Shown one piece after another: positions 4,984-57,612 of a DNA stretch of 64,000 bases. The translations under genes were made by a program, and so were the position numbers. Source of the DNA: a virus; the IMG/VR virus record IMGVR_UViG_3300045988_148972, one strand, 5' to 3'. Positions within the stretch are counted from its first letter, which is position 1. Each line of letters starts with the position of its first letter. The notes beneath the pieces are model-generated. The model did no database searches, had not been told where the DNA came from, and saw only the letters and a program-made list of their open reading frames with translations.

Positions 4984-5012
4984 ATGTCTAACTTAAAAAC
5001 AAAGGAATTATG
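4984..5012 (+). promoter_or_regulatory. Early intergenic module copy
   Basis: ATGTCTAACTTAAAAACAAAGGAATTATG. Confidence 0.6.
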
Positions 5013-12845: not shown

Positions 12846-13430
12846 ATGGGAGAGAAGAAATTCAAGCATGTAATGATAGATACGGAAACGCTGGGAAGGA
12901 CACCTGGAAGCGTGGTCCGTTCGGTGGCTGCCGTAGAGTTTGACCCGCAAACGGGTGAAACCGGACGACAGAAGGTGTGGAAAATAGACCTTACCGATTC
13001 TATCCGATACGGTTTTAAGGTAGAAGCATCCACACTGAAATGGTGGATGATGCAGTCGGACGAAGCACGGCGCGATTTTGTGGAAAGCGAGGAAACACCG
13101 CTAGTGGATTTCCTACAAGACTTTGATGATTTTCTAAGTTGCATAAATGATGAAAATAATTTTACTCTGTGGTGTCTTCAGCTGGATTTCGACGTGGCTA
13201 TGCTTCGTACCATGTATTCATGGTATAACCTGAACGTGCACGGATGCGACGAAGAAGTGCTTCCGTGGAACTTCCGGAAAGTGCGCGATGTGCGTCCGTA
13301 TATGGATGCTCTGGATAGTGCAGGTCTTCTTCCTCCGAAGGTAGCGGACAGACACACTCCGCTGGCCGACTGCCTGGCTCAAATAAACTATGTGCATCTG
13401 GTTGAAAAGAATAATCTTGTAGTGAGATAG
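12846..13430 (+). CDS. DEDD-family 3'-5' exonuclease (DnaQ/Rv2179c-like)
   Basis: ExoI-like MIDTETLG and ExoIII-like HTPLADCLAQ (H-x4-D) motifs. Size 194 aa. Confidence 0.65.
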   Translation: MGEKKFKHVMIDTETLGRTPGSVVRSVAAVEFDPQTGETGRQKVWKIDLTDSIRYGFKVEASTLKWWMMQSDEARRDFVESEETPLVDFLQDFDDFLSCINDENNFTLWCLQLDFDVAMLRTMYSWYNLNVHGCDEEVLPWNFRKVRDVRPYMDALDSAGLLPPKVADRHTPLADCLAQINYVHLVEKNNLVVR

Positions 13431-13434
13431 TGGT

Positions 13435-14232
13435 ATGCCGCAAGCAAGTATTTTCAATATGGATTGTATGATAGGAATGGCTTCTTTGGAAGCTCATTCC
13501 TTGGACTGTATTATATGCGATCTTCCGTATGGTGTGCTGAATAAACAGAATTCTCATGCAAAATGGGATACGGAACTTCCTCTTGATGAACTTTGGAGTC
13601 AGTATCGCAGACTGATAAAACCAAACGGTGCTATTATCTTATTCTGTCAGGGAATGTTTACAGCCCGTCTGATGATTAGCAATCCAAAAATGTGGAGATA
13701 CAACTTAATCTGGAAGAAAGGTACACGAGTATCCGGTTTCCTGAATGCAAACCGTATGCCGTTACGTAATCACGAAGATATAGCGGTATTCTACCAGAAG
13801 CTTCCTGTATATCATCCCCAAATGACAATAGGGGAAAAGAATCACGGAAGAAATACGAGAGGTGCCCAATCAAATAACAAATGTTACGGAAATTTCAAGG
13901 TAGTAGATACTGTATTTACCAACGAGAAATATCCGCTTTCGGTAATAGATATTCCCAAAGAGCATGACAGCTTTTATCATCCTACCCAGAAGCCAGTAGC
14001 ACTTTTAGAATATCTCATACGAACTTACACAGACGAAGGTGATACAGTGATGGACAACTGTATGGGTAGTGGAACGACCGGTGTAGCTTGCATGAATACA
14101 GGGCGTAACTTTATCGGATATGAGAAAGAAAAGAAGTATTTCGACATTTCTCAGGAAAGAATATTTTCAGCTCAGAAAGGAATTAATACCGCAAACGGGA
14201 AACTGATACAAGGAGATTTATTTAAGCCATGA
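13435..14232 (+). CDS. DNA methyltransferase, N6-adenine/N4-cytosine (beta class)
   Basis: CDLPYG (DPPY-type) near the N-terminus. HPTQKP and MDNCMGSGTTGVAC (AdoMet motif) near the C-terminus. Confidence 0.85.
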   Translation: MPQASIFNMDCMIGMASLEAHSLDCIICDLPYGVLNKQNSHAKWDTELPLDELWSQYRRLIKPNGAIILFCQGMFTARLMISNPKMWRYNLIWKKGTRVSGFLNANRMPLRNHEDIAVFYQKLPVYHPQMTIGEKNHGRNTRGAQSNNKCYGNFKVVDTVFTNEKYPLSVIDIPKEHDSFYHPTQKPVALLEYLIRTYTDEGDTVMDNCMGSGTTGVACMNTGRNFIGYEKEKKYFDISQERIFSAQKGINTANGKLIQGDLFKP

Positions 14233-15530: not shown

Positions 15531-16378
15531 ATGACACTAGATGAAAAAATAGAATACTCCATTAACCTTCTTCGCAAAAGTGAAGAGATGGCATTGAGAA
15601 TGGACCCGGAGAACGGCTTTTATCTGGCGTTTTCTGGTGGGAAAGACTCCCAGGCCCTCTATCATCTTGCCGTACGGGGGGGGTGAAATTCAAGGCTCAC
15701 ATGAACCTTACAAGCGTGGACCCACCTGAAGTTATACGTTTCGTAAAAAAGAACTATCCGGACGTGGAACTGATAAAACCCAAAATGAGCATATATGATA
15801 TGGCAAAAAAGAAGGGATGTCTTCCTACCCGGCTTGTGAGATGGTGCTGCGAAGAGTTTAAGGAAAGGTCAGGTGCAGGGAAAGTCACTCTGATTGGAAT
15901 ACGAAAATCGGAGAGTACGAACCGGAAGAAAAGAAATGAAATTGAAACGGGAGACCGTAAATTCTCCGGAACATTTGACCAGTGGAGCGAACATCAGGAA
16001 AAGATGGTGACATGCGTCGGAGGGAAAGACAAAATACTGGTTTCTCCTATCCTTTACTGGACTGAAAAGGATGTATGGGATTACTTGAAACGAATGCACA
16101 TTCAATATTGCGAGCTGTACGACAAGGGATATAAAAGGATAGGATGTATTATGTGCCCCATGTCGAACTACAAACAGAATGTGCGAGAAATGAAAGATTT
16201 TCCGCACGTAGGTAAAAACTGGAGGAAAACAATTGAATGGCTGATCGAAAACAAATGGAAGGACAAACCGCTTTTGCAAGATCCTGATATGGCCCTGAAA
16301 TGGTGGATAAGCAAGAAGTCTTTCAAAGAATTTTATGCAGACGAAGTGATGCAACAGAAATTAGAGTTTAAAGATTAA
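15531..16378 (+). pseudogene. PAPS-reductase-family (PP-loop) gene split by a frame change at a G8 run
   Basis: A 51-codon ORF (15531-15686) carries FSGGKDSQ and stops just after G8 (15676-15683). The remainder (15683-16378, GCIMCP motif) is in the -1 frame. One extra G would fuse them (..AVRGGVKFKAHMN..). Confidence 0.75.
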
Positions 16379-16388
16379 AAGAAACGAT

Positions 16389-16880
16389 ATGATTAACAAA
16401 TGTACATTCATCGGTAATCTGGGGAAAGACCCCGATTATAAAGTGCTGGAAAGCGGACACAAGGTAGCAAGTTTCTCCATCGCCTGCAGCCGGAAGATAA
16501 AAAACAAGGAAAATGGAGAGACAAAGGAATATACAGAATGGATTCCCATTGTGGCCTGGGACAATCTGGCCGAAATCATCAGCCAGCTGGCCCGCAAAGG
16601 TTCGCAGGTGTATGTGGAAGGAGAGTTCCGCACACGAAGCTACGAGGCAGAAGGAACCGGAGAAAAACGCTATGTGTCCGAAATATGGACACGCGATTTT
16701 CGTCTGCTCGGGCGGAAGGCAGAATCATCGTCTGCTCCGCTTCCTACTTCGCCCGACGATTTCGGCAGTCAGTCAGCGCCGGCTTCTGCTCCTGCACCCG
16801 CTGCTTCGGTACAGTCCGAGGTAAAAGCTACGCAGGGAACGCTTAACATGACTGACGAAAAGGATGATCTTCCTTTCTAA
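16389..16880 (+). CDS. ssb: Single-stranded DNA-binding protein
   Basis: OB-fold N-terminus (CTFIGNLGKDP..EWIPIVAW), a Pro/Ser/Ala-rich linker, and the acidic tail DDLPF. Confidence 0.9.
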   Translation: MINKCTFIGNLGKDPDYKVLESGHKVASFSIACSRKIKNKENGETKEYTEWIPIVAWDNLAEIISQLARKGSQVYVEGEFRTRSYEAEGTGEKRYVSEIWTRDFRLLGRKAESSSAPLPTSPDDFGSQSAPASAPAPAASVQSEVKATQGTLNMTDEKDDLPF

Positions 16881-22389: not shown

Positions 22390-24105
22390 ATGAAGAATAA
22401 AATACGAGTCTTTGAAGCATTTGCAGGATATGGTTCGCAGTCTATGGCATTGCATAGGTTGGGGATAGATTATGAAGTGGTTGGAATAAGTGAAATTGAC
22501 AAGTACGCCATTCAGGCTTATATGGCCGTGCATGGAGACACTCCCAATTATGGCGACATATTAAAGATAGACTGGAGCAGTGTTCCTGATTTTGATTTTC
22601 TGACATACTCATTCCCTTGTACCGACATAAGTACAGCCGGACAGCAGAAAGGGCTTGCAGAGGGTAGCGGAACACGAAGCAGTCTGCTTTGGGAATGTCG
22701 TAAGGCTATAGAGGCGAAGCGTCCGAAGTATCTGCTTATGGAGAACGTGAAGAACCTCGTATCGAAGAAGTTTACCCCGTATCTGAAAGAATGGCTCAGA
22801 TTTCTTGAAGGGCAGGGCTACAGCAATTATACGAAAGTTCTCAACGCAAAGGACTTCGGAGTGCCGCAAAACAGGGAACGTGTCTTTATGGTTTCGATAT
22901 TGGGCGAGGCTTCGTTCCATTTTCCGAAACCTTTCACTCTGGAGAAAAGGCTGAAAGATGTTCTTGAACAGGATGTGGATGAAAGTTTTTATCTGAGCGA
23001 GAAGATTGTAAAGACATTTCTTGCAAGAAACGAGAAGAACAAGGCTAAAGGAAACGGGTTTAAGTTTGCTCCTACAATGGGTGATGTGATTGCATCAAGT
23101 ATTTTGACTAATTCCGGTTCAAGGGATTGCGATAATTTCGTTTATGTAGTAGGAAACACAAATCCTTCAGGCCATGGAATGAATGGAAACGTATTCAATT
23201 CAAACGGATTGTGTCCTACTTTGACAACAAACAAAGGTGAAGGTCCAAGAATTTTGGAATCAGTGCCAACAGGTTTTAGCTCAAAAGAAAGAAAATATGG
23301 GAATAAAAGAGTACAATCATTGGTTAATAGTGGAAAAATCAGTGGTCATGAAGTTCAATTTCTTGATGCTTATAATCAAACAGTATCTGATATATGTGGA
23401 ACAATTAAGACGACTGTGGATTCTTCTTGTTTAAGTTTTATTTCAGAACCTATAAATCAAGCACTAATTATAAAACAAGCAACTAAAAAAGGATATATAG
23501 AAATCCCGCCAGGTGGGGTATTCGATGCTTCTTATCCTGAAAGCTTAACGAGAAGAGGTAGGGTACAAGATAACGGCAAAGTTTCTCCTACGTTGACAGC
23601 AGGCGGAGAGCCTCCATGTCTTTATGAGGGAATAGAAGCAAAAATCTTTCAATCTCCACGCGGATTTAATAAAGGTGCAATATTAGATAATTGTTCGGCT
23701 ATAACGTCAAGCCGATGGCAGGATAATAATTTCGTAGTAGAACCTAAAATTATTCAGGTAGGCAATTTATTTGAAGACAAAGGTTTTAAGAATCCTCAAA
23801 GAGGTAGAGTTTACAATCCCATAGGCATAAGTCCTAATATAGATACAATGGGAGGAGGTAATTTAGAACCTAAAATAATTGAAGGCTTTACAAATTACCG
23901 AATCCGTAAACTCACACCTCGCGAATGTTTCCGACTTATGGGAGTTTCCGAAAAAGATATAGACAATATTCAGAAGTCAGGCATCAGCAAGACGCAGCAA
24001 TACAAAATGGCCGGCAACAGCATTGTGGTAGATGTTCTTTATTACATCTTCAAGAAAATGTTCGTCGACAAGTCGTGCGAAGATGCGCAATTATCTATTT
24101 TTTAG
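22390..24105 (+). CDS. DNA (cytosine-5) methyltransferase with an unusually long target-recognition region (571 aa)
   Basis: Motif I FAGYGSQ, IV FPCTDIS, VI MENVKNL, VIII QNRERVF, X YKMAGNSI. About 330 aa lie between VIII and IX/X, with two PTLT-type elements (CPTLTTNKGEG, SPTLTAGGEPP). Confidence 0.9.
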   Translation: MKNKIRVFEAFAGYGSQSMALHRLGIDYEVVGISEIDKYAIQAYMAVHGDTPNYGDILKIDWSSVPDFDFLTYSFPCTDISTAGQQKGLAEGSGTRSSLLWECRKAIEAKRPKYLLMENVKNLVSKKFTPYLKEWLRFLEGQGYSNYTKVLNAKDFGVPQNRERVFMVSILGEASFHFPKPFTLEKRLKDVLEQDVDESFYLSEKIVKTFLARNEKNKAKGNGFKFAPTMGDVIASSILTNSGSRDCDNFVYVVGNTNPSGHGMNGNVFNSNGLCPTLTTNKGEGPRILESVPTGFSSKERKYGNKRVQSLVNSGKISGHEVQFLDAYNQTVSDICGTIKTTVDSSCLSFISEPINQALIIKQATKKGYIEIPPGGVFDASYPESLTRRGRVQDNGKVSPTLTAGGEPPCLYEGIEAKIFQSPRGFNKGAILDNCSAITSSRWQDNNFVVEPKIIQVGNLFEDKGFKNPQRGRVYNPIGISPNIDTMGGGNLEPKIIEGFTNYRIRKLTPRECFRLMGVSEKDIDNIQKSGISKTQQYKMAGNSIVVDVLYYIFKKMFVDKSCEDAQLSIF

Positions 24106-27016: not shown

Positions 27017-27056
27017 ATAAAATCCCGGGACGGTGCTTTCCGTTCCGGGATTTTTA
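27017..27056. terminator. Bidirectional terminator between convergent genes
   Basis: 13-bp stem AATCCCGGGACGG / CCGTTCCGGGATT flanked by an A-run and a T-run. Confidence 0.8.
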
Positions 27057-27065: not shown

Positions 27066-27608
27066 TCATTCTCGTGATATTTCACTAAACTTACATTTAG
27101 ACTCATCCCAAGTATATTCCTTACTACGTTTAAATCTTTGTTTTTCATCCCATACTCTAAATTCCTCTACGTTAATATATAAAACAAATCCATTTGGCTT
27201 TAAAGTGATTGAAGTATAAACTTCGTCAAGAGAAACAGTAGGAGTACTTTTATATTCACTAAATTCTTTGAGAACCCTTTCAAATTCTCTCAAGAATCTA
27301 TCGGCATTTTCCATAGGATAAAGAATATCTGATCCGTCATCATCTTCATCTCCGTCACACAAAACAATGTCTTTATCTTTTATTTTATAAAAATATACAT
27401 TAGCATTTAAATCTGGTAAATCTACGTCATCATCCGGATCATACCAACTAGAAGCTACAACCAGTCGTATTCCATCCTCCATCAAAGTGATATGGTAGTA
27501 GTTATCCCATCCAAAATAATAAGTTTTTAATTCATAAGAAGCTATTATCTTCTTCAACTTCAGAATAAAATCACAAGCTCTAATTGTATTGTGTTCCTTA
27601 CATTTCAT
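27066..27608 (-). CDS. Hypothetical protein (180 aa)
   Basis: ORF downstream of rep. Contains an Asp-rich segment. Confidence 0.6.
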   Translation of the reverse strand: MKCKEHNTIRACDFILKLKKIIASYELKTYYFGWDNYYHITLMEDGIRLVVASSWYDPDDDVDLPDLNANVYFYKIKDKDIVLCDGDEDDDGSDILYPMENADRFLREFERVLKEFSEYKSTPTVSLDEVYTSITLKPNGFVLYINVEEFRVWDEKQRFKRSKEYTWDESKCKFSEISRE

Positions 27609-27619: not shown

Positions 27620-29083
27620 TTATTTTCTGATTTCATAAAGTAGTTTTACATCTTCGCCATACACTGCATTAAGCGCTTGTTTAAATGGTGCGCTCAGCTT
27701 TTCGTCAATATAAGTCGCTACGTATGCAGCCGGTACAGATAGTGTCACTTCCTCACCATTAAGCGAAACAAATTCTAGCGACGACAGCCATGTGCTAAAT
27801 TCAGCCGGACTTACAGAACCTTGAAGAAGTTCCATAAATGCCATCCATCGGCTTTTATCTTCTTCGCTTATTGTTTTATGCTTGACGGTTTTCTTCTCCT
27901 CTACCCTATTATCTTCTTTTGTTTCTTTTGCCTCCGGCGTGTGCTGGATAATAAAATTCTTGAGTGAAGTCACCACATAACTTTTCGGATTGTTTACCTT
28001 ATACCGGTTCATTCGGTCACGAAGTGCCAGCACTTCGGCCCGGAAATCGTTCATCAGTTCGTCAGGAAGCATATCGGTCAGCATACGCACATCAGTTTCC
28101 GTCAGTTTATATTCAGAGCGAAGCAAGTCCCAAATATCTGCGGGAAGTTTTTGCTGTCTTCGTTTACGCGACATTTCCTCCCCAAGTTCACTCAGCTTGA
28201 TTTTAAATAATATCTCGTCAGGGTTTCCTCTCTTCGTTGCGCCCTTATATACAGGTTCATAATCAAAAGTAAAGTCCACCTGATTTTCGCTGGCCATACG
28301 GTCGAGGTCTTCACGTATCGGGTCCATCACTTCCTTACAGAATTTACTGAATTTCGGGTATCGGTCTTTTTCGTAAGTCTTAGTAACTACCCCGTTCACC
28401 TCCACATTTTCCAATGTTATCACTCCCAGGAATTTCTTGAGCTCCACATATTCTACCGATTTCTTTGGGAAGTCTTTCCATCTGGAAAGATAAATATAAA
28501 TGCTTGGTGTACGTTTGCGTTTGCAGATACGGGCTATTCGGTAAATGTGGTCAAGATAACCTTTCCCGTTACCTAAATCGCACAGTTCTTTCAATACCTT
28601 TGCATCCATACGCGCTTCCACGTAGTTCATTCTCCTTTCTTTTTCTTTCGAGCCTGAAACCGGAATCATCGGCATTTCAATCGTAGAAAACAGATGTGCG
28701 TATGTACGAATAGGTCTTCCCACTTCATCATATCTGTAAAAAGAACAGTTCATCTTCATCAGATTATCGCATGCCTCACTAAGATACATATAGTCACGAG
28801 GACTTACTCCAAGAGAGGAAGCGCTGATTCGGAATGTGAGAATCTGATTGTCGTCCAGATCATCAGGGAAAAGTGACATTTGTCCGTCTGCACGTCTGTT
28901 TTTCAGAAATTCATTGAAGCGGTCTTGCATGGACTTCATGATTTCTATCATAATACTCCGCTGGTAGAGTGAAAAATCTGCCCCTACCATGGCATACAGA
29001 TAGGGTTGTTTAATAAACTCTACTGAGCTAAGTTCTTTAATCAGTGAGTTGCTTGATTCGGTGGTGCTTTTCTTCCGTCGCAT
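27620..29083 (-). CDS. Putative replication initiator (Rep) with a DnaA domain-I-like C-terminus (487 aa)
   Basis: The N-terminal region resembles plasmid Rep initiators (FIKQPYLYAMVGADFSLYQRSIMIEIM). The C-terminus RWMAFMELLQGSVSPAEFSTWLSSLEFVSLNGEEVTLSVPAAYVATYI follows the DnaA_N pattern. It sits next to the iteron array. Confidence 0.55.
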   Translation of the reverse strand: MRRKKSTTESSNSLIKELSSVEFIKQPYLYAMVGADFSLYQRSIMIEIMKSMQDRFNEFLKNRRADGQMSLFPDDLDDNQILTFRISASSLGVSPRDYMYLSEACDNLMKMNCSFYRYDEVGRPIRTYAHLFSTIEMPMIPVSGSKEKERRMNYVEARMDAKVLKELCDLGNGKGYLDHIYRIARICKRKRTPSIYIYLSRWKDFPKKSVEYVELKKFLGVITLENVEVNGVVTKTYEKDRYPKFSKFCKEVMDPIREDLDRMASENQVDFTFDYEPVYKGATKRGNPDEILFKIKLSELGEEMSRKRRQQKLPADIWDLLRSEYKLTETDVRMLTDMLPDELMNDFRAEVLALRDRMNRYKVNNPKSYVVTSLKNFIIQHTPEAKETKEDNRVEEKKTVKHKTISEEDKSRWMAFMELLQGSVSPAEFSTWLSSLEFVSLNGEEVTLSVPAAYVATYIDEKLSAPFKQALNAVYGEDVKLLYEIRK

Positions 29084-29089
29084 AGGCTA

Positions 29090-29344
29090 TCAGTTTATTT
29101 TTCGTATTTCGTAAGTATTCCCATCGGACTGGAATGTACCTACCTTCACGTATTTTTCATCATCAATAAGAGAGAAAACAGATATTCCCAACGCATCGGC
29201 CACACTTTCCAGAAATTGCAGGTTAGTACGTGACGGACCGTTTAATTTCTTTGTCAGACTTGAATTGGAAATACCCAGTCTCTTTGCCAGTTCATCCTTG
29301 CTTATACCTGACTCTTTTAATCTTTCTTCTAAATAAATCTTCAT
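29090..29344 (-). CDS. XRE-family HTH regulator (84 aa)
   Basis: ISKDELAKRLGISNSSLTKKLNG. Start set at the internal ATG (MKIYLEERL), because the upstream part of the track ORF lies in operator repeats. Confidence 0.75.
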   Translation of the reverse strand: MKIYLEERLKESGISKDELAKRLGISNSSLTKKLNGPSRTNLQFLESVADALGISVFSLIDDEKYVKVGTFQSDGNTYEIRKIN

Positions 29345-29374
29345 TGGTTCGTTATTTGGCACAAATATAGATAT

Positions 29375-29425
29375 ATTTTCCAAAAACGGAAAATAAAACG
29401 AAAATATTTTCCAAAAACGGAAAAT
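29375..29425. promoter_or_regulatory. Two 20-bp palindromic operator-like repeats
   Basis: ATTTTCC-AAAAAC-GGAAAAT at 29375-29394 and 29406-29425, 31-81 nt upstream of the HTH start. Confidence 0.65.
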
Positions 29426-29440
29426 TCTGAATGAAAATAG

Positions 29441-29573
29441 TTCGGAAAGTTTGCACATTTAATCTATATATGTTCGGAAATTTTTCCCTATATGACGGAA
29501 TCTTTACCCATACACACGGAAACTTAGTACATATTGACGGAAAGTTTACCCCTAAAAACGGAAAGTTTGCACC
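29441..29573 (+). repeat. Iteron array A (6 copies)
   Basis: CGGAA(A/T)nnTT(T/A)nCC units with CGGAA at 29445, 29475, 29496, 29517, 29538 and 29559. The last five are 21 bp apart. Confidence 0.75.
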
Positions 29574-29772
29574 TTTATTAGTATAACTATTTGTTTTATA
29601 GCAAATTACGATTTACTATATATCTTATATCATAATATCATTAATAAAAGCAGACCGATATATTTTTTCTTTTATCCCTTATTTAAGAAACTATCGTTTC
29701 TTTATATTATAACATATAGATAATTATATAGATTCTGAAAATCATTGATTATTAGGTTTTTAAAAGCATGTA
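29574..29772. other. A+T-rich spacer of the putative origin
   Basis: About 200 bp, almost all A/T, between oppositely oriented iteron arrays. Confidence 0.6.
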
Positions 29773-29880
29773 GGTGCAATGATTCCGTCAATAGGTGAAA
29801 AGATTCCGTCAGTAAGGGAAATTATTTCGTGTAAAGGTGCAAACTTTCCGAACTATATAAAGGTGCAAACTTTCCGAACT
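29773..29880 (-). repeat. Iteron array B (5 copies, inverted orientation)
   Basis: GGTGCAAnnnTTCCG units ending at 29787, 29808, 29829, 29850 and 29876. AAAGGTGCAAACTTTCCGAACT is duplicated exactly. Confidence 0.75.
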
Positions 29881-29959
29881 TTACAATAAAAATCCATCAA
29901 AACCGGAAACGAAACTCCGGACGTGCGTTAATTATGGTATAAACTAAAAACTAAACAAC

Positions 29960-30832
29960 ATGAATTTGTCGAAAAGCATTTGCATGGCTGCCATCCTGAT
30001 TATGGCGGCTTGCAGCAAGGAAAACATCATCCATCCGACGGATATGGAGCAGACGAGTGAGAAAACGTGCAGGGTGTCTTTCCTCCCGGTGTTTATGGGA
30101 ATCGGACAGGGAGACATCAACCAGTGGAATAATTCACGTGCCGGCACGCTGGCCGAGCTGGCCACTACCCTCTCCTATTGGGATTACATGGACGGCGAGC
30201 AGATGCAGGCGGACACCGTTTCGCTTCCTTCTCCCATTACCCTGAACATGAAGTATGGAGCGCATCATGTGTACTTCCTGGCTCACAGCAGTACCGGAGG
30301 AAGTATGGAAGGCATGAAATATACTCCTGAGAAAGTAACTGAGACTTTCTGGGAGGATTTCTCTCTTCAAGTGGACGAGAATATGGCTTCGAGTCAGGAA
30401 CTGCAAATGAAGCGCGTAGTAAGCCGTGCCATGATCACCGTGAAAGATGCGTTTCCTGCCTCGGTGAAATCGGTACGGATGACGGTAGGCGGTCATCTTC
30501 GCACGCTGGATGTGACTACCGGTAACGGTGACGCAGATTCCGCATCCGACTATACGATTACTTGGGAGATAGGCGAAGAGTATGCGGGCCGTAGCGGGCT
30601 TTATTTCTCCGTGTTTACCTTCACTCCTACCGAGTCGGAAGAATTTGACGTGACGCTGAAAATAGAGGCTCTGGGAGCCGACGGGAAAATGCTTTATGGT
30701 GCACAGGCTTCCGGCGTTCCGCTTCTGAGGAACCGGTGCACAAACGCCATCTGCCGTCTGTTCAGTGGAAATACGGGAATCACTTTTTCTGATCCGGACG
30801 AATGGAATCCGGCCATCGAGATAGAAATGTGA
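29960..30832 (+). CDS. Lipoprotein, possibly fimbrillin-like (FimB/Mfa2-type) (290 aa)
   Basis: Lipobox ILIMAAC-S. Visibly more G+C-rich than its flanks. The family call rests on remembered general similarity only. Confidence 0.55.
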   Translation: MNLSKSICMAAILIMAACSKENIIHPTDMEQTSEKTCRVSFLPVFMGIGQGDINQWNNSRAGTLAELATTLSYWDYMDGEQMQADTVSLPSPITLNMKYGAHHVYFLAHSSTGGSMEGMKYTPEKVTETFWEDFSLQVDENMASSQELQMKRVVSRAMITVKDAFPASVKSVRMTVGGHLRTLDVTTGNGDADSASDYTITWEIGEEYAGRSGLYFSVFTFTPTESEEFDVTLKIEALGADGKMLYGAQASGVPLLRNRCTNAICRLFSGNTGITFSDPDEWNPAIEIEM

Positions 30833-30847
30833 CATCATTCAAAAAGC

Positions 30848-30881
30848 GAAGGGCAGAGAAGCGTGTGCTCCCCTGCCCTTT
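30848..30881. terminator. Hairpin between convergent genes
   Basis: AAGGGCAG ... CTGCCCTT stem. Confidence 0.6.
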
Positions 30882-30902
30882 CGGTGTATGAATTGTGCGG
30901 GA

Positions 30903-31403
30903 TTATTTCCCCACGATGTCTTTGTAGTATTTGTCAATGAACTCCTGCGCGGCTACATTCAGCAGGTCGATGACAAACACTAAGGTATCTTTCTTTTCCT
31001 TGTTACGGCCTTTGTTCATGCTTTTCTTAATGTCTTCCAGCTGCTCCAGCATGTCTTCTTCCAGATAGACATTCCGCATGATGCGTCCCTCTTTTTCATC
31101 TTTTCTAATTCTTTTTCGTATGCCGTTTATTTTTCGTTCTACTGCGGGTGATTCGCTTTTCACGGACTCTTTATCGGGCGCAGCTTCTTGTTCCGGACGG
31201 ATGTTTTCCTCTTCCTGGTTATTTGCTTCAACGCATGAGTTTTCAGCAGTGAAGGTAGCAGGAGATTCTTCCGTCTTTTCTTCTGTCTTTTCCTGAGTCG
31301 CAGCACTCTCCTCCCCTGCCTTCTCCGCGTTGGCACGTGCTTCCTCAATGCCCTGCCGGGCATCAAGCATTGTTTCATTCAGGTTGAATCGTTGTTTAGC
31401 CAT
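30903..31403 (-). CDS. Putative partition partner (centromere-binding, ParG/RHH-like C-terminus) (166 aa)
   Basis: Lies immediately downstream of parA. It has an acidic low-complexity centre. The C-terminus IMRNVYLEEDMLEQLEDIKK fits a strand-helix pattern. Confidence 0.4.
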   Translation of the reverse strand: MAKQRFNLNETMLDARQGIEEARANAEKAGEESAATQEKTEEKTEESPATFTAENSCVEANNQEEENIRPEQEAAPDKESVKSESPAVERKINGIRKRIRKDEKEGRIMRNVYLEEDMLEQLEDIKKSMNKGRNKEKKDTLVFVIDLLNVAAQEFIDKYYKDIVGK

Positions 31404-31414
31404 AATCGTGGGTT

Positions 31415-32197
31415 TTACTGGTTATCTAATCGTGATAGAATCTCTTTTGCCAGCTCCATGTAGTCGGCAGCTCCCGTGCAGTTGGGCGCAAAATCGAACA
31501 CGTTCATGCGCTGCGCAGGCGATTCGGCCAGCTGAATGTTCGTGCGGATGGTGGTATTGAACACCTTCCCAGGGAAATTCTGATTCATCTGTTCGTATGC
31601 CTGACGGTGAAGCGACAGACGCTTGTCGTAGCGTGACATGATGTAACCAAGGATTTCAAGTTTGGGATTCACCAGCTTTTTGATTTCCTCGTATTTTGCG
31701 GTAATCAGGCCCATTCCGTCCAGGGCAAATACTTCGCAGTTGATAGGAATCAGCAGGTAGTCAGAAGCCACCATTGCATTGATAGAAACCAGTCCGTAGT
31801 TCGGAGGGCAGTCAATCAGGATAAAATCATAATGGTCTTCCAGATTGTTCAGCATCATGCGCAGGATGTATTCGCGTCCGGTACGGCTCACCAGTTCCTG
31901 TTCGCACTGGTATAAGTTCGGGCGTGAAGGAATGAAGTCGAAGCTTTCTTCGTTTTCATTTTCACAGAACACACATTCCATGATGCTGGCGTTTCCGGAC
32001 ATGGCTTCGTAAAGGGTTTTACCATCCTTTTCCGTGGCCAGACGGAATCCCATCATTTTAGATGCGTTACCCTGTGCGTCGGCATCTATTACCAGCACAC
32101 GTTTACCAAGAGAATGTAAGGCTTTTGCCAGATTGACGGTGGTAGTGGTCTTCCCTACTCCACCCTTAAAGTTGAATGAAGAAATTGTAATTGCCAT
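31415..32197 (-). CDS. parA: ParA/Soj-type partition ATPase (260 aa)
   Basis: Deviant Walker A FKGGVGKTTT, Walker B VLVIDADAQ, and IDCPP. Start set at MAITISSF. Confidence 0.9.
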   Translation of the reverse strand: MAITISSFNFKGGVGKTTTTVNLAKALHSLGKRVLVIDADAQGNASKMMGFRLATEKDGKTLYEAMSGNASIMECVFCENENEESFDFIPSRPNLYQCEQELVSRTGREYILRMMLNNLEDHYDFILIDCPPNYGLVSINAMVASDYLLIPINCEVFALDGMGLITAKYEEIKKLVNPKLEILGYIMSRYDKRLSLHRQAYEQMNQNFPGKVFNTTIRTNIQLAESPAQRMNVFDFAPNCTGAADYMELAKEILSRLDNQ

Positions 32198-32261
32198 ATC
32201 AAATGTTTTTGTTTTATTACACTGCAAAGATAGTCGTTTTTTTTCATTTCCGCCATAAATA

Positions 32262-32720
32262 CAGAAATATTTTTATGCAAAAATGTAAATATTCAAATGT
32301 ACAAACGCATAAAAGTATTTTTGAATAAAAATATAAAAGCATTTTTATGTGGATGCATAAAATAATAATAGTATAAACGAATAAAAGTATAGAAGTATAA
32401 AAACATAAAAGTATTTTTATATAAACATACTTTTGTGTGAAAATACAAAATGGGTGATGGAAAGATGTTTTAGTACAAAATCATAGAAGTATGAACATAT
32501 AAAAGAATAATTGAGTAAAAGTATAAAAACATAAAAGTATAAAAGTATGAAAGTATGAAAGAATAAAAGTATCTACATTCAAATATGCAGACATATAAAA
32601 GAATAATAATGTTTTAATACAAATGAATGAAAACATAAAAGCATGAAATAATAAAAGAGTAAAAGTATTTTTATATAAAAGCATAAAAGCATGTTTGAAT
32701 AAAAGTATTTATTATAAATC
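32262..32720. repeat. Dense array of ATAAAAG(T/C)AT-type 10-mers upstream of parA (centromere-like)
   Basis: About 20 or more copies counted by eye, e.g. GTAAAAGTATAAAAACATAAAAGTATAAAAGTATGAAAGTATGAAAGAATAAAAGTAT. Confidence 0.65.
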
Positions 32721-33052
32721 AGATAATCAATTAGTTTCAAAGTTTGCTTATGTGCGGTAAAAACATTATATTTGCAGAGAATTGAGCATGAAAATGTTCT
32801 TTGTTTTATTACACCTGGATGGGGAACAGTGGTTCTTCATCCTTTTTCTTTTTGATATTCAGAGAAAATAGGATATATTTGCATCATCATGAGAAAAATA
32901 GTAACCATGTTATTGCACACGGTGGTGTGAGTTATTTGTTATTATGAATTAATGTGTTAAGATGACATGCTCATTTCCATGTGAATGGATTTGAAAATAC
33001 ATGTTTTTTATAAATAGTTTATTGATCGCGCTTCCCTGTGAAGGGAGGTGCG

Positions 33053-33380: not shown

Positions 33381-35114
33381 ATGGCGACAAACACAAAAAA
33401 TACAAACCGTAAGAAGTCAAACCCGGGAATAAAGGAGTTCAGAGGAAAAGTGACTTCACTCGTAGACCGTGGATACCAGTATATAGGCATGGCCCGCGTG
33501 TCGGAAATCCCGTCTGTATCTTCCTCGGAAATGATGAAAGGGGGAGGGGCTATCGGCGGGCTGCCCATTCAGGGCACGTTTGATATTTTCGACAGCCGGC
33601 AGTCAAACCCGGTGCCGGTCAGCAATGCCGGGACACCCGGTCTGGGTTACATTCCATGGGGACCTGGCAACATGCTGCCGAATACTATCTACAAACTGGT
33701 AGGCAGTCTTCCATACACGGCGACCGCCATCAAATATATTATTGACCTGGCCGTAGGGCTCGGGCCGCAGCTTATGTACCGCTGGTCACGCTACGTAAAC
33801 GGTACGGTAAAGACTGAACTGATTCCCTTCAAGGATGCCGGACTACTGATTCGCAACCGCATCATGGAGATTCAGGCACAGATTGACCAGCAGAAAGCAG
33901 AAAGCGGAGAAGAGCAGGGTGGGGGAGGCACAATTACCTGGTCGCAGGCCGTATCTGGAGAGGAACAGAAAGATTCCGCAAAGGTTGGAACACCGGAATA
34001 CGAGCTGAAGCAGCTTCGTGAAGATTATCGCACCTGGGAAGAGACTGACAAGGAATGGGACAAGTTCTGTGAAAATAACAATCTGGAACTTCACTACCTG
34101 AAGTGCATGACAGACGACGCGCACATGGACATTTATTTCCCGACTATCGGGCTAAGCATCGGACGGAAGGACGAAGAGTGGGACCCGAAAATCGTCAAGT
34201 TAGGAAACATTCCGGCGGTGTGCTGCCGTATGGAGGAAATGGACGAACGGATGCGCATAAACTACGTGTATTATGCGGAGAAGTGGCGAAAGGATGCCAC
34301 GCCAAAGTTGGAAAGAAAGGATGTGGTGGCTTATCCCACACTGATGCCTGAAAATATGCTTACGGAGCTTCGCCGTCAGGTGGAAAAGAGTAAGAACCGT
34401 CCTCCAAAGAAACGTACCACCTGGTTCTGCTGTCCCAGCTACTATGCGTCTATGCTGAAACCTTATTACCCTCAGCCGGCCTGGTGGAGTATCTTCCCGT
34501 CGATGACCTTCGATTATGCCACGACTCTGATGGCTGATAAACACATGGCCCGCCAGAATGCGACCATGTGGGGGAAAATGATTTTCATCAACAACGAGTA
34601 CCTTCGTGCGATGTTCGATGAAATGGGAGCGGATACTACCGAAGCGAAACAAGCTGTACGTGACAGTATCTATAAGAAGGTGAATGAGTTCCTTCAACGC
34701 CGAGAGAACAACGGGAAAACTATTTGTCTGGACTCGTTTGTAGGCCCTGACGGGAAGACGATGCAGCATGCGGTGGAGATTGTGGATGTGCCGCAGGTAG
34801 CAAACTCAATAGAATTGAAAAACGAGTTGGAGGAAATATCCAGCATTATATTCTTTGCCATCGGTGTGCATCCGGCCCTTATTGGTGCGGTTCCCGGTAA
34901 AAGCGGTAGTAGTGGGGGAACTTACCAGCGCGAATTGCAGTTGCTCAAGCAAAACCAGCTTTCTACCCGGCAGCGTATTTATCTGCGGTTCCTGAAGAAT
35001 ATCTATACATTCAATAAATGGGACAAGCATGGAGAAATAGTCATCCGTCAGCAGACATTTACCACGCTCGACCGTAGCGCAACCGGCACAGAAGAGACAG
35101 AATCCACGCTATAA
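33381..35114 (+). CDS. Putative portal protein (577 aa)
   Basis: Supported by size, late-promoter control, and the segment WGPGNMLPNTIYKLVGSLPYTATAIKYIIDLAVGLG, which resembles a portal N-terminal motif from memory. Not verified. Confidence 0.45.
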   Translation: MATNTKNTNRKKSNPGIKEFRGKVTSLVDRGYQYIGMARVSEIPSVSSSEMMKGGGAIGGLPIQGTFDIFDSRQSNPVPVSNAGTPGLGYIPWGPGNMLPNTIYKLVGSLPYTATAIKYIIDLAVGLGPQLMYRWSRYVNGTVKTELIPFKDAGLLIRNRIMEIQAQIDQQKAESGEEQGGGGTITWSQAVSGEEQKDSAKVGTPEYELKQLREDYRTWEETDKEWDKFCENNNLELHYLKCMTDDAHMDIYFPTIGLSIGRKDEEWDPKIVKLGNIPAVCCRMEEMDERMRINYVYYAEKWRKDATPKLERKDVVAYPTLMPENMLTELRRQVEKSKNRPPKKRTTWFCCPSYYASMLKPYYPQPAWWSIFPSMTFDYATTLMADKHMARQNATMWGKMIFINNEYLRAMFDEMGADTTEAKQAVRDSIYKKVNEFLQRRENNGKTICLDSFVGPDGKTMQHAVEIVDVPQVANSIELKNELEEISSIIFFAIGVHPALIGAVPGKSGSSGGTYQRELQLLKQNQLSTRQRIYLRFLKNIYTFNKWDKHGEIVIRQQTFTTLDRSATGTEETESTL

Positions 35115-35214: not shown

Positions 35215-35301
35215 TTAATAGATTTTTCAGTGGCGTAGTATCGCCACTTCAGTCGCGCTTAATAGATTTTTTGGTGGCGATACTACGCCACTAAACTCGC
35301 G
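35215..35301. repeat. Tandem about-44-bp unit x2, each with a GTGGCG/CGCCAC hairpin whose loops are mutually complementary
   Basis: TTAATAGATTTTTCAGTGGCG-TAGTAT-CGCCACT.. and TTAATAGATTTTTTGGTGGCG-ATACTA-CGCCACT.. Confidence 0.75.
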
Positions 35302-35304
35302 TAA

Positions 35305-35619
35305 CTACGATTTTTCTTCATCTTTGCTTTTGGAATCTTTATTTTCCGGCTGTTTTTCATGGCTCGTGTTCCCTTGAATGGCGTTTAAAAGATTGATAAT
35401 CAATCTGTGTTCAATCCGCTTTATCATCAGGAACTGGGTGTATGTCTTGGCTATCTGTGCAATGATGAAAGAAAGCATCAATATAATAGAGATGAAAAAA
35501 TTGTACAACAAGTCCCTTGTTTCAGTCCCGTTAAAATATGAAAAAACAGAAAAGGCTATTTGAGCACATACGATGATAGGGAAAATAAAGTTGATTGCTT
35601 TTAAGATTTTATCTTTCAT
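35305..35619 (-). CDS. Membrane protein (104 aa)
   Basis: Two hydrophobic helices and a Lys/Asp/Glu-rich tail. Confidence 0.55.
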   Translation of the reverse strand: MKDKILKAINFIFPIIVCAQIAFSVFSYFNGTETRDLLYNFFISIILMLSFIIAQIAKTYTQFLMIKRIEHRLIINLLNAIQGNTSHEKQPENKDSKSKDEEKS

Positions 35620-54292: not shown

Positions 54293-54910
54293 ATGGAACT
54301 GGCATGTGATATAATGGATATAGGAACATTAGATATATGCCCTAAAGAAACATATTCGGGAATAGGTCATGTAATATATGTGACTTATCCCGAAGATCTT
54401 GTGGAAAAACCTTTTTACGAGAATGGTGAAGCTGCTTTTTCACTTTCATCTTTTGTATTTAAACCTGGTAGAGGGGCATATCGTATTTATATCAAGAAAA
54501 AAAGCGGAAGAATACAGTCTGTCGGATATGATAGGGATAAAGGATACAAGGTTAATCTGATGTTTACGATTGATCGTGTTTTAGAAAAATCATCAAGGCT
54601 GCTTCGCATATTGAAAAATAGAGAAGATGCGATATTTTTTGTTGATCGGTTTGATGGAGGATACTATGTTGTGTATGATCCGGTGTTCGGTACGAAAGTA
54701 AGTAATTCCTATGATAGCGGGAAAGCTCCTGATTCTGATAGAGGATATTCTGTTACTGTCACCTGTGATCCATCTAAATACTCATTGACTAAGTGGGATG
54801 GAACTCTTACTATATTAAAGAGGTCATTGTCTTTTCTTTCTACTGAAGATGGTCGTCCGATATTTACAGAGAAAAACGAATATATTTTGTCAAACAAAAT
54901 AAAACTTTAA
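54293..54910 (+). CDS. Hypothetical late protein (205 aa)
   Basis: ORF. Confidence 0.6.
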   Translation: MELACDIMDIGTLDICPKETYSGIGHVIYVTYPEDLVEKPFYENGEAAFSLSSFVFKPGRGAYRIYIKKKSGRIQSVGYDRDKGYKVNLMFTIDRVLEKSSRLLRILKNREDAIFFVDRFDGGYYVVYDPVFGTKVSNSYDSGKAPDSDRGYSVTVTCDPSKYSLTKWDGTLTILKRSLSFLSTEDGRPIFTEKNEYILSNKIKL

Positions 54911-57178: not shown

Positions 57179-57186
57179 TTTATCTC

Positions 57187-57205
57187 AGCCGTGCGGAGCA
57201 CGGCT
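57187..57205 (+). other. GC-rich hairpin just 3' of VR
   Basis: AGCCGTGC-GGA-GCACGGCT. There is no counterpart after TR. Confidence 0.7.
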
Positions 57206-57609: not shown

Positions 57610-57612
57610 ACT

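What the first reader, a model, noticed from the sequence alone, without database searches (positions are those of the whole stretch)
27620..32720. Plasmid-type maintenance module inside a phage genome (phage-plasmid candidate)
Within 5 kb lie an XRE repressor, a Rep-like initiator, an iteron/AT-rich origin, and a ParA ATPase with a small downstream partner. An array of short repeats sits upstream of parA. The same window carries tail fibres, a putative portal and a lysis cassette. I recognised no DNA polymerase, helicase/primase or integrase in it. That combination is what is expected of an episomally maintained temperate phage (P1/N15-like lifestyle). As far as I know, this lifestyle is poorly documented in Bacteroidota.
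Basis: partly seen in the sequence, partly recalled or inferred. Interest (0 to 1): 0.7.

Follow-up and report, generated by a model that had tools for sequence, protein, structure and literature searches.

The report
Plasmid maintenance module in gut phage
A common ~110-kb tailed phage of gut Bacteroidales has no recognisable integrase but carries a complete plasmid-style replication origin and partition system, so it most likely persists in its host as a plasmid rather than inserting into the chromosome.

Summary
Window 27.0-32.7 kb holds two minus-strand operons.

- xre-rep-orf180 is preceded by an origin. Ten or eleven 15-bp iterons sit in two inverted clusters, mostly 21 bp apart, around a ~190-bp AT-rich core.
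- parA-partner is preceded by a ~480-bp array of about 60 units phased at 8 bp (z=16).

Rep is a divergent Rep_3-type (RepE/pi-like, WH1-WH2) initiator fused to a DnaA domain-I-like tail. Its annotated relatives are replication initiators of Bacteroides, Phocaeicola, Segatella and Prevotella plasmids. None occurs in 50,697 deposited phage genomes. In relatives the iteron sequence changes with Rep, and the 8-bp unit changes with ParA/partner.

I walked out of the window through IMG/VR contigs. The genome is ~107-112 kb with a circular map and a full virion and lysis gene set. It also encodes an antirepressor and a primase-like protein. No integrase, recombinase, transposase or protelomerase domain was found in any ORF of at least 100 aa.

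The phage-plasmid reading is therefore well supported in silico, but the episomal state itself is untested. It is a new member of a known kind. The novelty claim is partly dated: crAssphage (RepL-based) and integrase-less Quimbyviridae have already been proposed as episomal in Bacteroidota.

The parts
27019..27054 (.). G+C-rich hairpin followed by a T-run, between convergent genes. Likely terminator of the xre-rep-orf180 operon.
   Evidence: Terminator-like scan: 15-pair stem with 8 GC pairs.
27066..27608 (-). 180-aa ORF directly downstream of rep, function unknown. A gene is called at the same position on contigs carrying the identical Rep (180 aa) and on the 80%-identity Rep locus L279 (186 aa).
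   Evidence: ORF list. No Pfam, PHROG or NCBIfam hit. Gene called next to rep on identical and related contigs; sequence homology of the L279 gene was not tested.
27620..29083 (-). Rep: a divergent Rep_3-type (WH1-WH2) iteron-binding initiator, residues ~20-310, fused through a helical linker to a DnaA domain-I-like C-terminal domain, residues ~411-485.
   Evidence: Pfam DnaA_N E 2e-8. Profile hit to DnaA domain I, 4tps, E 9e-9. Foldseek: DnaA domain I TM 0.81, RctB domains 2-3, RepE54. hhalign to Segatella plasmid RepB probability 99.7%. Plasmid tblastn hits. Rep3_N and Rep3_C in relatives.
29090..29344 (-). XRE-family HTH protein (84 aa), first gene of the rep operon. Probable autoregulator.
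   Evidence: Pfam HTH_3/HTH_26 and PHROG repressor families. Called as 84 aa on identical contigs.
29376..29425 (.). Two identical 19-bp palindromic sites, TTTTCC-N7-GGAAAA (TTTTCCAAAAACGGAAAAT), 31 bp apart. They lie just upstream of a TAtaTTTG (-7-like) box and the xre start. Candidate operators.
   Evidence: 2 hits, 0.08 expected. The same TTTCC-N5-7-GGAAA type is kept in most relatives whose iterons differ; the most distant one (L046) has TTTC...GAAA variants.
29443..29573 (-). Iteron cluster A. Six copies of GGTGCAAACTTTCCG-like 15-mers, five of them spaced 21 bp apart.
29579..29768 (.). AT-rich core (GC ~19%) between the iteron clusters. Candidate DNA-unwinding element. No DnaA box.
   Evidence: DnaA-box scan finds none between 22982 and 35143.
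29773..29876 (+). Iteron cluster B. Four to five copies in the opposite orientation to cluster A, spaced 21-26 bp.
29960..30832 (+). 290-aa lipoprotein-like ORF (signal peptide ending ...AAC; local GC 51%) wedged between the origin and the par operon. Cargo, not part of the maintenance machinery.
   Evidence: No family hit. An unannotated gene of 297-300 aa is called at the same position in L279 and L278; homology was not tested.
30849..30880 (-). Terminator-like hairpin downstream of the partner gene.
   Evidence: 14 pairs, 8 of them GC.
30903..31403 (-). Partition partner (166 aa). It has a conserved N-terminal 30 residues (MAKQRFNLNETM...), a variable acidic linker, a basic stretch and a C-terminal strand-helix-helix domain. 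Candidate centromere-binding protein.
   Evidence: Alignment. AF2 secondary structure: H116-130 and H135-164, preceded by the invariant RNVY segment. No database family hit.
31415..32197 (-). ParA: a short Walker-type (Soj-like) partition ATPase of 260 aa from the ATG. The ORF extends to a TTG at 32227.
32240..32725 (.). Centromere-like array of about 60 units of 8 bp, consensus GTATAAAA (G[T/C]AT box plus A-rich spacer), in two blocks offset in phase.
   Evidence: (z=16). 8-bp-phased arrays with different units lie upstream of divergent parA genes in relatives and in a Segatella plasmid.

Best explanation
The region is the plasmid-type maintenance module of a ~110-kb, apparently integrase-less tailed phage of Bacteroidales. 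It lets the phage genome persist as a low-copy circular plasmid prophage.

Proposed mechanism (sequence features are shown; binding and function are inferred):
- Replication. Rep monomers bind the 10-11 iterons, which sit in two inverted clusters on either side of a ~190-bp AT-rich core, and open it. No DnaA box is present. The DnaA domain-I-like tail of Rep is proposed to recruit the host replicative helicase or its loader directly.
- Control of rep. The XRE protein, or possibly Rep dimers, binds two palindromic sites over the promoter and autoregulates the xre-rep operon. This, together with iteron handcuffing, would set copy number.
- Partition. The small partner protein coats the ~480-bp array of 8-bp-phased boxes upstream of parA through a C-terminal ribbon-helix-helix-like domain. 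Its conserved N-terminal peptide stimulates the Soj-like ParA ATPase, which distributes the copies to daughter cells. This is the type Ib ParF-ParG-parH logic.

The same origin may also fire during lytic growth. In that phase it would be helped by the phage's primase-like protein and SSB, because no DNA polymerase gene was recognised.
For: Module identity:
- Rep belongs to the Rep_3 superfamily and matches plasmid initiators of Bacteroidales only, not phage genomes.
- A Segatella copri plasmid carries parA, a small gene and repB in the same order.
- ParA is a Soj/ParA ATPase.

Cis sites:
- Iterons are strongly clustered.
- The origin layout (iterons, AT-rich core, inverted iterons, palindromes, xre, rep) is kept in relatives with 47-99% Rep identity, while the iteron sequence changes with Rep: GGTGCAAACTTTCCG, then GGTGAAAAC(T)ACCGAAC, then GGTACAAATTACTACAAC.
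- 8-bp phasing has z=16. It recurs with different units upstream of ParA genes of 76% and 42% identity and in a plasmid.
- The rep and par cassettes reassort independently. One relative has Rep 51% with ParA 94% and partner 98%; another has Rep 88% with ParA 42% and an inverted cassette. That pattern is expected under incompatibility-driven exchange.

Phage context:
- TerL (E 4e-67 to annotated terminases), portal, head maturation protease, tape measure, tail protein, amidase and KilA-N/ANT antirepressor.
- Circular map: contigs of 107-112 kb begin and end in one tandem array, and at least 14 contigs read through it.
- No integrase, recombinase or transposase domain in ORFs of at least 100 aa.
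- No Rep relative in 185,579 species-representative genomes.
Against: - No direct evidence of an extrachromosomal state, of lysogeny or of virion production.
- A circular map also arises from terminally redundant, permuted virion DNA.
- The whole-genome gene survey used a composite of near-identical strains. It covered only ORFs of at least 100 aa and used Pfam and PHROG sensitivity, so a very divergent or small recombinase could be missed.
- The ribbon-helix-helix fold of the partner is not confirmed. Foldseek and PDB profile searches found nothing, and the AF2 model is of low confidence (pLDDT 60).
- The window's own Rep does not reach Pfam Rep3_N or Rep3_C. Membership rests on transitive homology and a medium-confidence model (pLDDT 70).
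- No toxin-antitoxin or master CI-type repressor was identified with confidence.
- Some relatives (L045, L046) have no ParA within 10 kb of rep.
Confidence: 0.7

Rival explanations
1. The Rep-iteron unit is simply the phage's vegetative origin, like lambda O and ori-lambda. The phage would be virulent or only transiently carried (pseudolysogeny or carrier state). ParA and its partner would serve some non-plasmid role, for example positioning replicating genomes, or would be a recently captured passenger cassette.
For: No DNA polymerase gene and no other initiator were recognised in the genome, so this origin probably also serves lytic replication. A primase-like gene and SSB are present. No master repressor was identified. 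Some relatives lack ParA near rep.
Against: Rep relatives are found in plasmids and chromids and in no deposited phage. ParA, the partner and a long phased centromere array are maintained and co-vary across relatives. An antirepressor and several XRE-type regulators suggest a temperate circuit. The parA-small gene-rep arrangement matches that of a Bacteroidales plasmid.
Confidence: 0.15
2. The element integrates after all. It would use a recombinase too divergent or too small to be recognised, or one that is present only in some strains. The plasmid module would then be a back-up or a remnant.
For: Many ORFs of the ~110-kb genome have no family assignment. ORFs below 100 aa were not scanned. 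The composite mixes strains.
Against: All long contigs are 103-123 kb with no host flanks seen, and they close on themselves. There is no Rep hit in species-representative genomes. The only TerL relatives in genomes are MAG contigs. No tRNA gene or att-like feature was seen in the window.
Confidence: 0.08
3. It is a large plasmid that carries a defective or domesticated phage gene set (a phage-like plasmid). It would no longer be an infectious virus.
For: No virion evidence is available here. The portal lies far from TerL, which is an unusual layout.
Against: The morphogenesis and lysis gene set is complete and intact. The two DGR cassettes show adenine-specific mutagenesis of the target, which implies ongoing selection on a receptor-binding protein. 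No conjugation or mobilisation gene was found. The element is highly prevalent and conserved across many samples.
Confidence: 0.07

Closest known systems
parA-small gene-rep modules of Bacteroidales plasmids, e.g. Segatella copri DSM 18205 plasmid unnamed2 (NZ_CP085934), and the Rep of conjugative Bacteroides plasmids (rep_cluster_663)
   Same: Homologous Rep core: hhalign 99.7%, tblastn E 6e-21 to the Segatella plasmid (best plasmid hit 3e-22, Prevotella nigrescens). Short ParA of 28% identity followed by a small ORF. AT-rich 8-bp-phased region upstream of parA. Same gene order.
   Different: Here the module sits in a 110-kb tailed-phage genome. Rep carries an extra DnaA domain-I-like C-terminal domain. 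An XRE gene precedes rep. A lipoprotein gene separates the origin from par.
Phage P1 plasmid prophage maintenance (RepA/oriR iterons plus ParA-ParB-parS)
   Same: The logic is the same: an integrase-independent circular plasmid prophage with an iteron-dependent initiator and an active ParA partition system, in a ~100-kb tailed phage (own knowledge; summarised in PMC10983915).
   Different: No sequence relationship was found. P1 uses a type Ia system (long ParA with an HTH, HTH-ParB, a compact parS with IHF). Here ParA is short and Soj-like, the partner is small, and the array is ~480 bp. P1 has Cre/lox and a separate lytic replicon, neither recognised here.
Type Ib partition systems: TP228 ParF-ParG-parH and pSM19035 delta-omega
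   Same: A short Walker ParA, a small dimeric centromere-binding protein with a flexible N-terminal tail, and a centromere upstream of parA. That centromere is built from an array of short degenerate boxes separated by AT-rich spacers (parH: tetramer boxes plus AT-rich spacers, PMC3130281), which gives a short repeat period.
   Different: The array here is about five times longer (~480 bp against ~100 bp). The partner is longer (166 aa) with an acidic linker. Its RHH fold is unconfirmed, and there is no sequence similarity to ParG or omega.
Carjivirus communis (crAssphage) as a phage-plasmid (PMC10983915; Schmidtke et al. 2025)
   Same: An integrase-less, prevalent gut phage of Bacteroidales proposed, with culture support, to persist as a plasmid.
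   Different: crAssphage has two RepL genes and a toxin-antitoxin system, and it was later described as a linear phage-plasmid. No ParA partition system or Rep_3/iteron origin is described for it. It is an unrelated virus (Crassvirales).
Integrase-less branch of 'Quimbyviridae' (Benler et al. 2021, PMC8008677)
   Same: Gut Bacteroidetes phages with DGRs, antirepressors, no integrase and a RepA-like winged-helix protein, for which episomal replication was proposed.
   Different: Those genomes are ~75 kb with TerL near Vequintavirinae and Ounavirinae, and the RepA-like gene is next to DnaB. No iteron origin or partition system was reported. Here the genome is ~110 kb and TerL is nearest to Microcystis, Porphyromonas and Polaribacter phage terminases. 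Relatedness to Quimbyviridae was not tested.

Membership tests
Rep_3 (RepA/RepB/RepE/pi) iteron-binding plasmid initiators | Two tandem winged-helix domains (Pfam Rep3_N/WH1 PF01051 and Rep3_C/WH2 PF21205) | tested here: met
   The window protein itself gives no Pfam hit to either domain. Family members do: P0059 hits Rep3_C at 25.7 bits (cut-off 21.1). P0124 (E 2e-77 to the family profile) hits both domains above cut-off, and 36 and 26 of 55 relatives hit Rep3_C and Rep3_N. The AF2 model matches RepE54 and RctB domains 2-3 (probability 0.93-1.0, low TM because of domain orientation). The feature is met by transitive homology, not directly.
Rep_3 (RepA/RepB/RepE/pi) iteron-binding plasmid initiators | Cognate origin next to the gene: directly repeated ~20-bp iterons beside an AT-rich region | tested here: met
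   Ten to eleven iterons, mostly at 21-bp spacing, flank a 190-bp core of 19% GC, 0.1-0.5 kb upstream of the xre start codon (29344), xre being the first gene of the xre-rep operon. Iteron sequence co-varies with Rep in relatives.
Rep_3 (RepA/RepB/RepE/pi) iteron-binding plasmid initiators | Rep binds iterons and supports autonomous replication | not testable with these tools
   Needs EMSA or footprinting and a replication assay of the cloned 27.0-29.96 kb fragment.
ParA/Soj partition ATPases, short type Ib-like | Deviant Walker A (KGGxGK[ST]), ~210-270 aa, no N-terminal HTH domain | tested here: met
   FKGGVGKTT motif, 260 aa. Full-length match to Soj/ParA structures 8ray and 1wcv (E 5e-47 and 3e-42). 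Only the ATPase core aligns to the P1/P7 type Ia ParA.
Type Ib partition system (ParF-ParG-parH-like) | Small centromere-binding partner with a ribbon-helix-helix DNA-binding domain, encoded downstream of parA | tested here: inconclusive
   A 166-aa ORF lies directly downstream. The conserved C-terminal strand-helix-helix pattern (invariant RNVY, then H116-130 and H135-164) is compatible with RHH. There is no Pfam, PHROG, NCBIfam, PDB or Foldseek match.
Type Ib partition system (ParF-ParG-parH-like) | Centromere of arrayed short repeats upstream of parA | tested here: met
   About 60 units at an 8-bp period across 32240-32725, z=16. Analogous arrays with other unit sequences accompany divergent ParA/partner pairs. 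Binding was not tested.
Phage-plasmid (sensu Pfeifer et al. 2021) | One replicon with both a complete phage gene set and plasmid replication/partition functions | tested here: met
   TerL, portal, protease, tape measure, tail protein and lysin, together with Rep_3-type Rep, ParA and partner, lie on single 103-115 kb contigs with a circular map.
Phage-plasmid (sensu Pfeifer et al. 2021) | Extrachromosomal maintenance in lysogens, and infectious virions | not testable with these tools
   The support is indirect only: no integrase domain, and no copies in species-representative genomes.
N15-type linear plasmid prophage | Protelomerase (TelN) and telomere site | tested here: not met
   No protelomerase or tyrosine-recombinase-fold Pfam hit in any ORF of at least 100 aa. 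Contigs close into a circle.
P1-type partition (type Ia) | ~400-aa ParA with N-terminal HTH, HTH-type ParB and a compact parS | tested here: not met
   ParA is 260 aa and aligns to P1/P7 ParA only over the ATPase core (E ~1e-7). The partner has no ParB/HTH family hit.

The most novel reading that the evidence does not exclude
This would be the founding example of a prevalent lineage of true circular phage-plasmids in gut Bacteroidales. In it, a Rep_3 initiator has acquired DnaA domain I, so that it fires a DnaA-box-free origin by recruiting the host helicase machinery itself. An unusually long (~480 bp, ~60 units) 8-bp-phased centromere is coated by a new family of small partner proteins. Independent swapping of the rep and par cassettes between co-circulating relatives would reflect plasmid-incompatibility pressure acting on phages. 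The 3-kb ori-xre-rep unit together with the 1.9-kb par cassette would then be a ready-made stable low-copy vector backbone for Bacteroidales.
Probability: 0.4. Interest if true: 0.75.

Novelty: new member of a known kind. Interest (0 to 1): 0.6.

Why it matters
- Many gut phages look temperate yet lack integrases, and plasmid-like carriage is the leading explanation. For Bacteroidales the documented case is crAssphage, with a quite different RepL-based system.
- Here the cis and trans parts of an alternative mechanism are mapped to the base pair, so each is directly testable. They are the iterons, the unwinding core, the operators, Rep, ParA, the partner and the centromere.
- The phage is common: 405 sequences fall in the 90%-identity Rep cluster, and dozens of IMG/VR contigs carry it.
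- The Rep family, a Rep_3 core with or without a DnaA domain-I-like tail, is large (2945 clusters at 50% identity) and largely unannotated. Only 7 of 55 sampled relatives gave a Pfam DnaA_N hit.
- The independent reassortment of the rep and par cassettes offers a natural data set on incompatibility in phage-plasmids.
- In practice the module could provide a stable, large-capacity vector origin for Bacteroidales.

Tried and rejected
- Megablast of 24 kb around the module against phage and plasmid collections found nothing.
- Rep tblastn against phage genomes found nothing.
- Scanning species-representative genomes for Rep found nothing. The TerL scan found only three MAG contigs from Tannerellaceae and Dysgonomonadaceae. 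These hint at a host but say nothing about integration.
- The look-up of encoding contigs from the first ORF of the window returned only a 2.8-kb contig, so I walked through IMG/VR loci instead.
- Many contigs end at window position 1 and ~3.9 kb upstream of the ORF at 62691. I considered these to be physical genome ends and rejected the idea. The first is a 10-bp tandem array that other contigs read through. The second coincides with the duplicated DGR cassette.
- The partner protein gave no hit in Pfam, PHROG, NCBIfam, a PDB profile search or Foldseek.
- A profile search of the 5.8-billion-protein index added no distant named homologues. The exhaustive representative search did.
- DnaA boxes are absent from the origin.
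- Rfam found no RNA family in the window, and there are no tRNAs.
- The sigma-70 promoter scan is uninformative here: counts equal those in shuffles, and Bacteroidales use a different consensus.
- I considered that the palindromes at 29376-29425 might be Rep-dimer operators, because they share TTTCCG with the iterons. They keep their sequence type in relatives whose iterons changed. I therefore favour XRE as the binder, but did not exclude Rep.

Full report
**1. What is in the region**

On the minus strand of window 27.0-32.7 kb lie two operons.

- Operon A runs 29344 to 27066. It holds an 84-aa XRE-type HTH protein (Pfam HTH_3 E 8e-10), a 487-aa Rep and a 180-aa ORF of unknown function. It ends at a strong hairpin at 27019-27054.
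- Operon B runs 32197/32227 to 30903. It holds ParA (Pfam AAA_31 E 2e-54; PHROG 164 'ParA-like partition protein' E 5e-68; Soj/ParA structures 8ray and 1wcv E 5e-47 and 3e-42) and a 166-aa partner. It ends at a hairpin at 30849-30880.
- Between the operons, on the plus strand, sits a 290-aa lipoprotein-like ORF with 51% GC and no family hit.

**2. The origin**

The 615-bp gap upstream of xre (29345-29959) has a clear internal structure.

- Reading away from xre, two identical palindromes TTTTCC-N7-GGAAAA come first, at 29376-29394 and 29407-29425. Two hits are found where 0.08 are expected. They lie just upstream of a TAtaTTTG box, which resembles the Bacteroides -7 promoter element (own knowledge).
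- Six iterons follow, at 29443-29573, five of them exactly 21 bp apart.
- A 190-bp core of about 19% GC follows, at 29579-29768.
- Four to five iterons in the opposite orientation complete the unit, at 29773-29876.

The consensus GGTGCAAACTTTCCG with up to 3 mismatches occurs 9 times in the 64 kb. Seven of those are in this 430-bp stretch, against 1.8 expected, and no shuffle of 100 reaches 9. No DnaA box lies anywhere near.

**3. Rep**

- Pfam sees only a C-terminal DnaA_N domain at residues 411-471, E 2e-8. A family profile confirms it against DnaA domain I structures (4tps E 9e-9).
- The N-terminal 20-380 residues match 38 Bacteroidota plasmid records by tblastn (Bacteroides 26, Phocaeicola 5, Segatella 3, Prevotella 2 and others). 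All those listed and annotated are called 'replication initiation protein' or 'RepB family plasmid replication initiator', with E down to 3e-22. The same query finds nothing in 50,697 phage records.
- The plasmid hits include conjugative Bacteroides plasmids (rep_cluster_663) and the 568-kb second replicon of Prevotella nigrescens.
- hhalign of the family alignment against the Segatella copri plasmid Rep gives probability 99.7%, E 1e-25 over 280 columns.
- An exhaustive HMMER search finds 2945 clusters (at 50% identity) with E up to 1e-3 and 199 with E up to 1e-30. Some are full length and others match only the first ~310 positions.
- Of 55 sampled relatives, 36 hit Pfam Rep3_C (WH2), 26 hit Rep3_N (WH1) and 7 hit DnaA_N.
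- The AF2 model (pLDDT 70) has two beta-rich winged-helix-like units, a helical linker and a compact C-terminal domain. Foldseek returns DnaA domain I (TM 0.81), RctB domains 2-3 and RepE54.

Rep is therefore a divergent Rep_3-type initiator fused to a DnaA domain-I-like module. Natural variants of 371-394 aa lack that tail.

**4. Comparative support for the origin**

I compared relatives with 99, 88, 87, 84, 80, 53, 51 and 47% Rep identity.

- The layout is kept in all of them: iterons, AT-rich core, inverted iterons, palindromes, xre, rep.
- The iteron sequence changes with Rep. It is GGTGCAAACTTTCCG in close relatives, GGTGAAAAC(T)ACCGAAC at 51-53% identity and GGTACAAATTACTACAAC at 47%.
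- The 21-bp spacing persists throughout.
- The palindromes keep the TTTCC-N5-7-GGAAA type in most of them; the most distant relative (L046) has TTTC...GAAA variants.

This is the pattern expected if Rep reads the iterons. Because the palindrome type persists where the iterons change, I infer that the more conserved XRE, rather than Rep, reads the palindromes.

**5. The partition cassette**

- Upstream of parA, 32240-32725 is a run of about 60 units of 8 bp with consensus GTATAAAA, in two blocks offset in phase. Period-8 autocorrelation is 0.513 against 0.364 +/- 0.009 in dinucleotide shuffles, z = 16.
- The partner has an invariant N-terminal peptide (MAKQRFNLNETMLDARQGIEEAR), a variable acidic linker, a basic stretch and a conserved C-terminal domain. 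In that domain an invariant RNVY segment is followed by two helices. This fits a ribbon-helix-helix domain preceded by a ParA-stimulating tail, but no database match confirms it.
- In relatives, ParA genes of 76% and 42% identity carry different partners. Each is preceded by a 450-600-bp array that is also phased at 8 bp but built from different units. A Segatella plasmid shows weaker 8-bp-multiple phasing (strongest at lags 16 and 24).
- Short degenerate boxes separated by AT-rich spacers form the known architecture of the parH centromere. That site is bound by the RHH protein ParG in the type Ib system of TP228 (PMC3130281).

**6. Modularity**

One relative has a 51%-identical Rep but 94%- and 98%-identical ParA and partner. 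Another has an 88%-identical Rep but a 42%-identical, inverted ParA cassette. The two cassettes are thus exchanged independently, as plasmid incompatibility determinants are.

**7. The whole element**

- Rep relatives sit on dozens of IMG/VR contigs, many of 103-115 kb. nr names one of them 'MAG TPA: DNA REPLICATION protein [Caudoviricetes sp.]'.
- I walked rightwards from the window through contig IMGVR_UViG_3300045988_151707 and leftwards. From these I built a 115-kb composite.
- The window begins in a 10-bp tandem array, (GTGGCTGCTG)n. Four contigs of 107-112 kb begin and end in this array, and at least 14 contigs read through it, joining the two sides. The map is therefore circular and the shared contig end is an assembly break.
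- Outside the window lie these genes:
  - a second DGR cassette;
  - a 2206-aa tape-measure protein and a 1099-aa protein with a DnaG zinc ribbon;
  - a 429-aa HTH protein;
  - a head maturation protease;
  - TerL, with E 4e-67 to annotated terminases of Microcystis phages and weaker matches to Porphyromonas and Polaribacter phage terminases;
  - a KilA-N/ANT antirepressor and two HU-HIG proteins.
- Inside the window are:
  - the portal, the 1905-aa tail protein and an amidase;
  - ArdA, SSB and an exonuclease;
  - two DNA methyltransferases and a PAPS-reductase-like protein.
- Pfam scans of essentially all ORFs of at least 100 aa found no integrase, resolvase, transposase or protelomerase.
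- No Rep relative occurs in 185,579 species-representative genomes. TerL relatives occur on MAG contigs of Tannerellaceae (68% identity) and Dysgonomonadaceae. With the plasmid homologies, this places the host in Bacteroidales.

**8. Interpretation**

- The module is a plasmid replicon plus partition system of the kind used by Bacteroidales plasmids, installed in a complete tailed-phage genome with no recognisable integration machinery. The best explanation is a phage-plasmid (confidence about 0.7).
- Shown: the homologies, the cis-element statistics, the co-variation, the circular map and the absence of recognisable recombinases.
- Inferred: who binds what, the helicase-recruiting role of the DnaA-like tail, the RHH fold, copy-number control and, above all, the episomal state.
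- Rivals:
  - a purely vegetative origin in a non-temperate phage (0.15);
  - an unrecognised integrase (0.08);
  - a phage-like plasmid that no longer makes virions (0.07). The last is made unlikely by adenine-specific DGR mutagenesis of the target gene: all 11 TR/VR differences fall on TR adenines.

**9. Relation to what is known**

- It works like the P1 plasmid prophage but is not related to it. The partition type differs: it is type Ib-like, not type Ia.
- N15-type linear maintenance is excluded by the absence of a protelomerase and by the circular map.
- In Bacteroidota, crAssphage has been reported as a phage-plasmid with RepL genes and a toxin-antitoxin system, and no ParA is described (PMC10983915). 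An integrase-less Quimbyviridae branch with a RepA-like protein was proposed to be episomal (PMC8008677).
- The survey of phage-plasmids by Pfeifer et al. notes that plasmid functions are poorly recognised in Bacteroides (PMC7969092).
- I found no description of this ~110-kb lineage or of its Rep_3-DnaA_N/ParA module in the searchable literature.
- Verdict: a real feature and a new member of a known kind. Two aspects deserve follow-up: the DnaA domain-I fusion at a DnaA-box-free origin, and the very long 8-bp-phased centromere.

Noticed in passing
window 1-85: A 10-bp tandem array (GTGGCTGCTG x5.5; 6-12 or more units and GTGTCCGCTG variants in relatives) is followed by a perfect hairpin GGTGGCGTTCCTC...GAGGAACGCCACC. 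Many independent ~107-112 kb contigs start and end here while others read through. It is an assembly break on a circular map. Its biological role (pac site, VNTR, second origin) is unknown.
   Followed up: partly
window 55760-59085; L055 15053-18378: Diversity-generating retroelement. It comprises a 472-aa target with VR 57044-57174, a 117-aa accessory gene (Avd-like by its position between target and RT; no family hit), and an RT with TR 57688-57818 inside its 5' part. All 11 TR/VR differences are at TR adenines. A second 3.5-kb copy of the whole cassette (~93% identical) lies ~12 kb downstream in related contigs. Many contigs also break near here.
   Followed up: partly
window 29960-30832 (+): A lipoprotein-like 290-aa ORF with markedly higher GC (51%) sits between the origin and the par operon. 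An unannotated gene of 297-300 aa is called at the same position in two relatives (homology not tested). It may be a lysogenic-conversion or exclusion gene expressed in the plasmid state.
   Followed up: no
loci L039, L031, L279 compared with window 27620-32725: The rep and par cassettes reassort independently among closely related phages. Examples: Rep 51% with ParA 94%; Rep 88% with ParA 42% and an inverted cassette. The 8-bp centromere unit changes with the ParA/partner type.
   Followed up: partly
P0027-P0031 (Rep variants); representative search: Rep variants of 371-394 aa, ~80% identical, lack the DnaA domain-I tail. The wider Rep family is large (2945 clusters at 50% identity), mostly unannotated, and exists both with and without the tail.
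   Followed up: partly
window 33381-35114, and composite 107155-108981 (L258 17580-19406): The portal gene lies directly beside the par centromere region. On the circular map it is ~40 kb from TerL, with the early/anti-defence block and the maintenance module in between. This is an unusual split of the packaging genes.
   Followed up: no
window 5010-5552, 12846-14232, 15683-16880, 22390-24105: An anti-defence and DNA-metabolism block: ArdA antirestriction protein, Rv2179c-like 3'-5' exonuclease, two DNA methyltransferases, a PAPS-reductase-like protein and SSB. ORF assignments for ArdA, the exonuclease and SSB are inferred, because the batch scan does not name the matching member.
   Followed up: no
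window 35215-35316: A 44-bp tandem repeat (2.3 copies, 78% matches) in the gap after the portal gene, containing a GGCGTACTATCGCC-type palindrome. Function unknown.
   Followed up: no
window 54293-54910; composite 102530-103660 (L258 ~12955-14085): Three paralogous ~180-205-aa proteins begin M(A)EL(S/A)CD(L/I)MDIG. Two sit in tandem after the putative major capsid gene and one sits in the tail region of the window. No family assignment.
   Followed up: no
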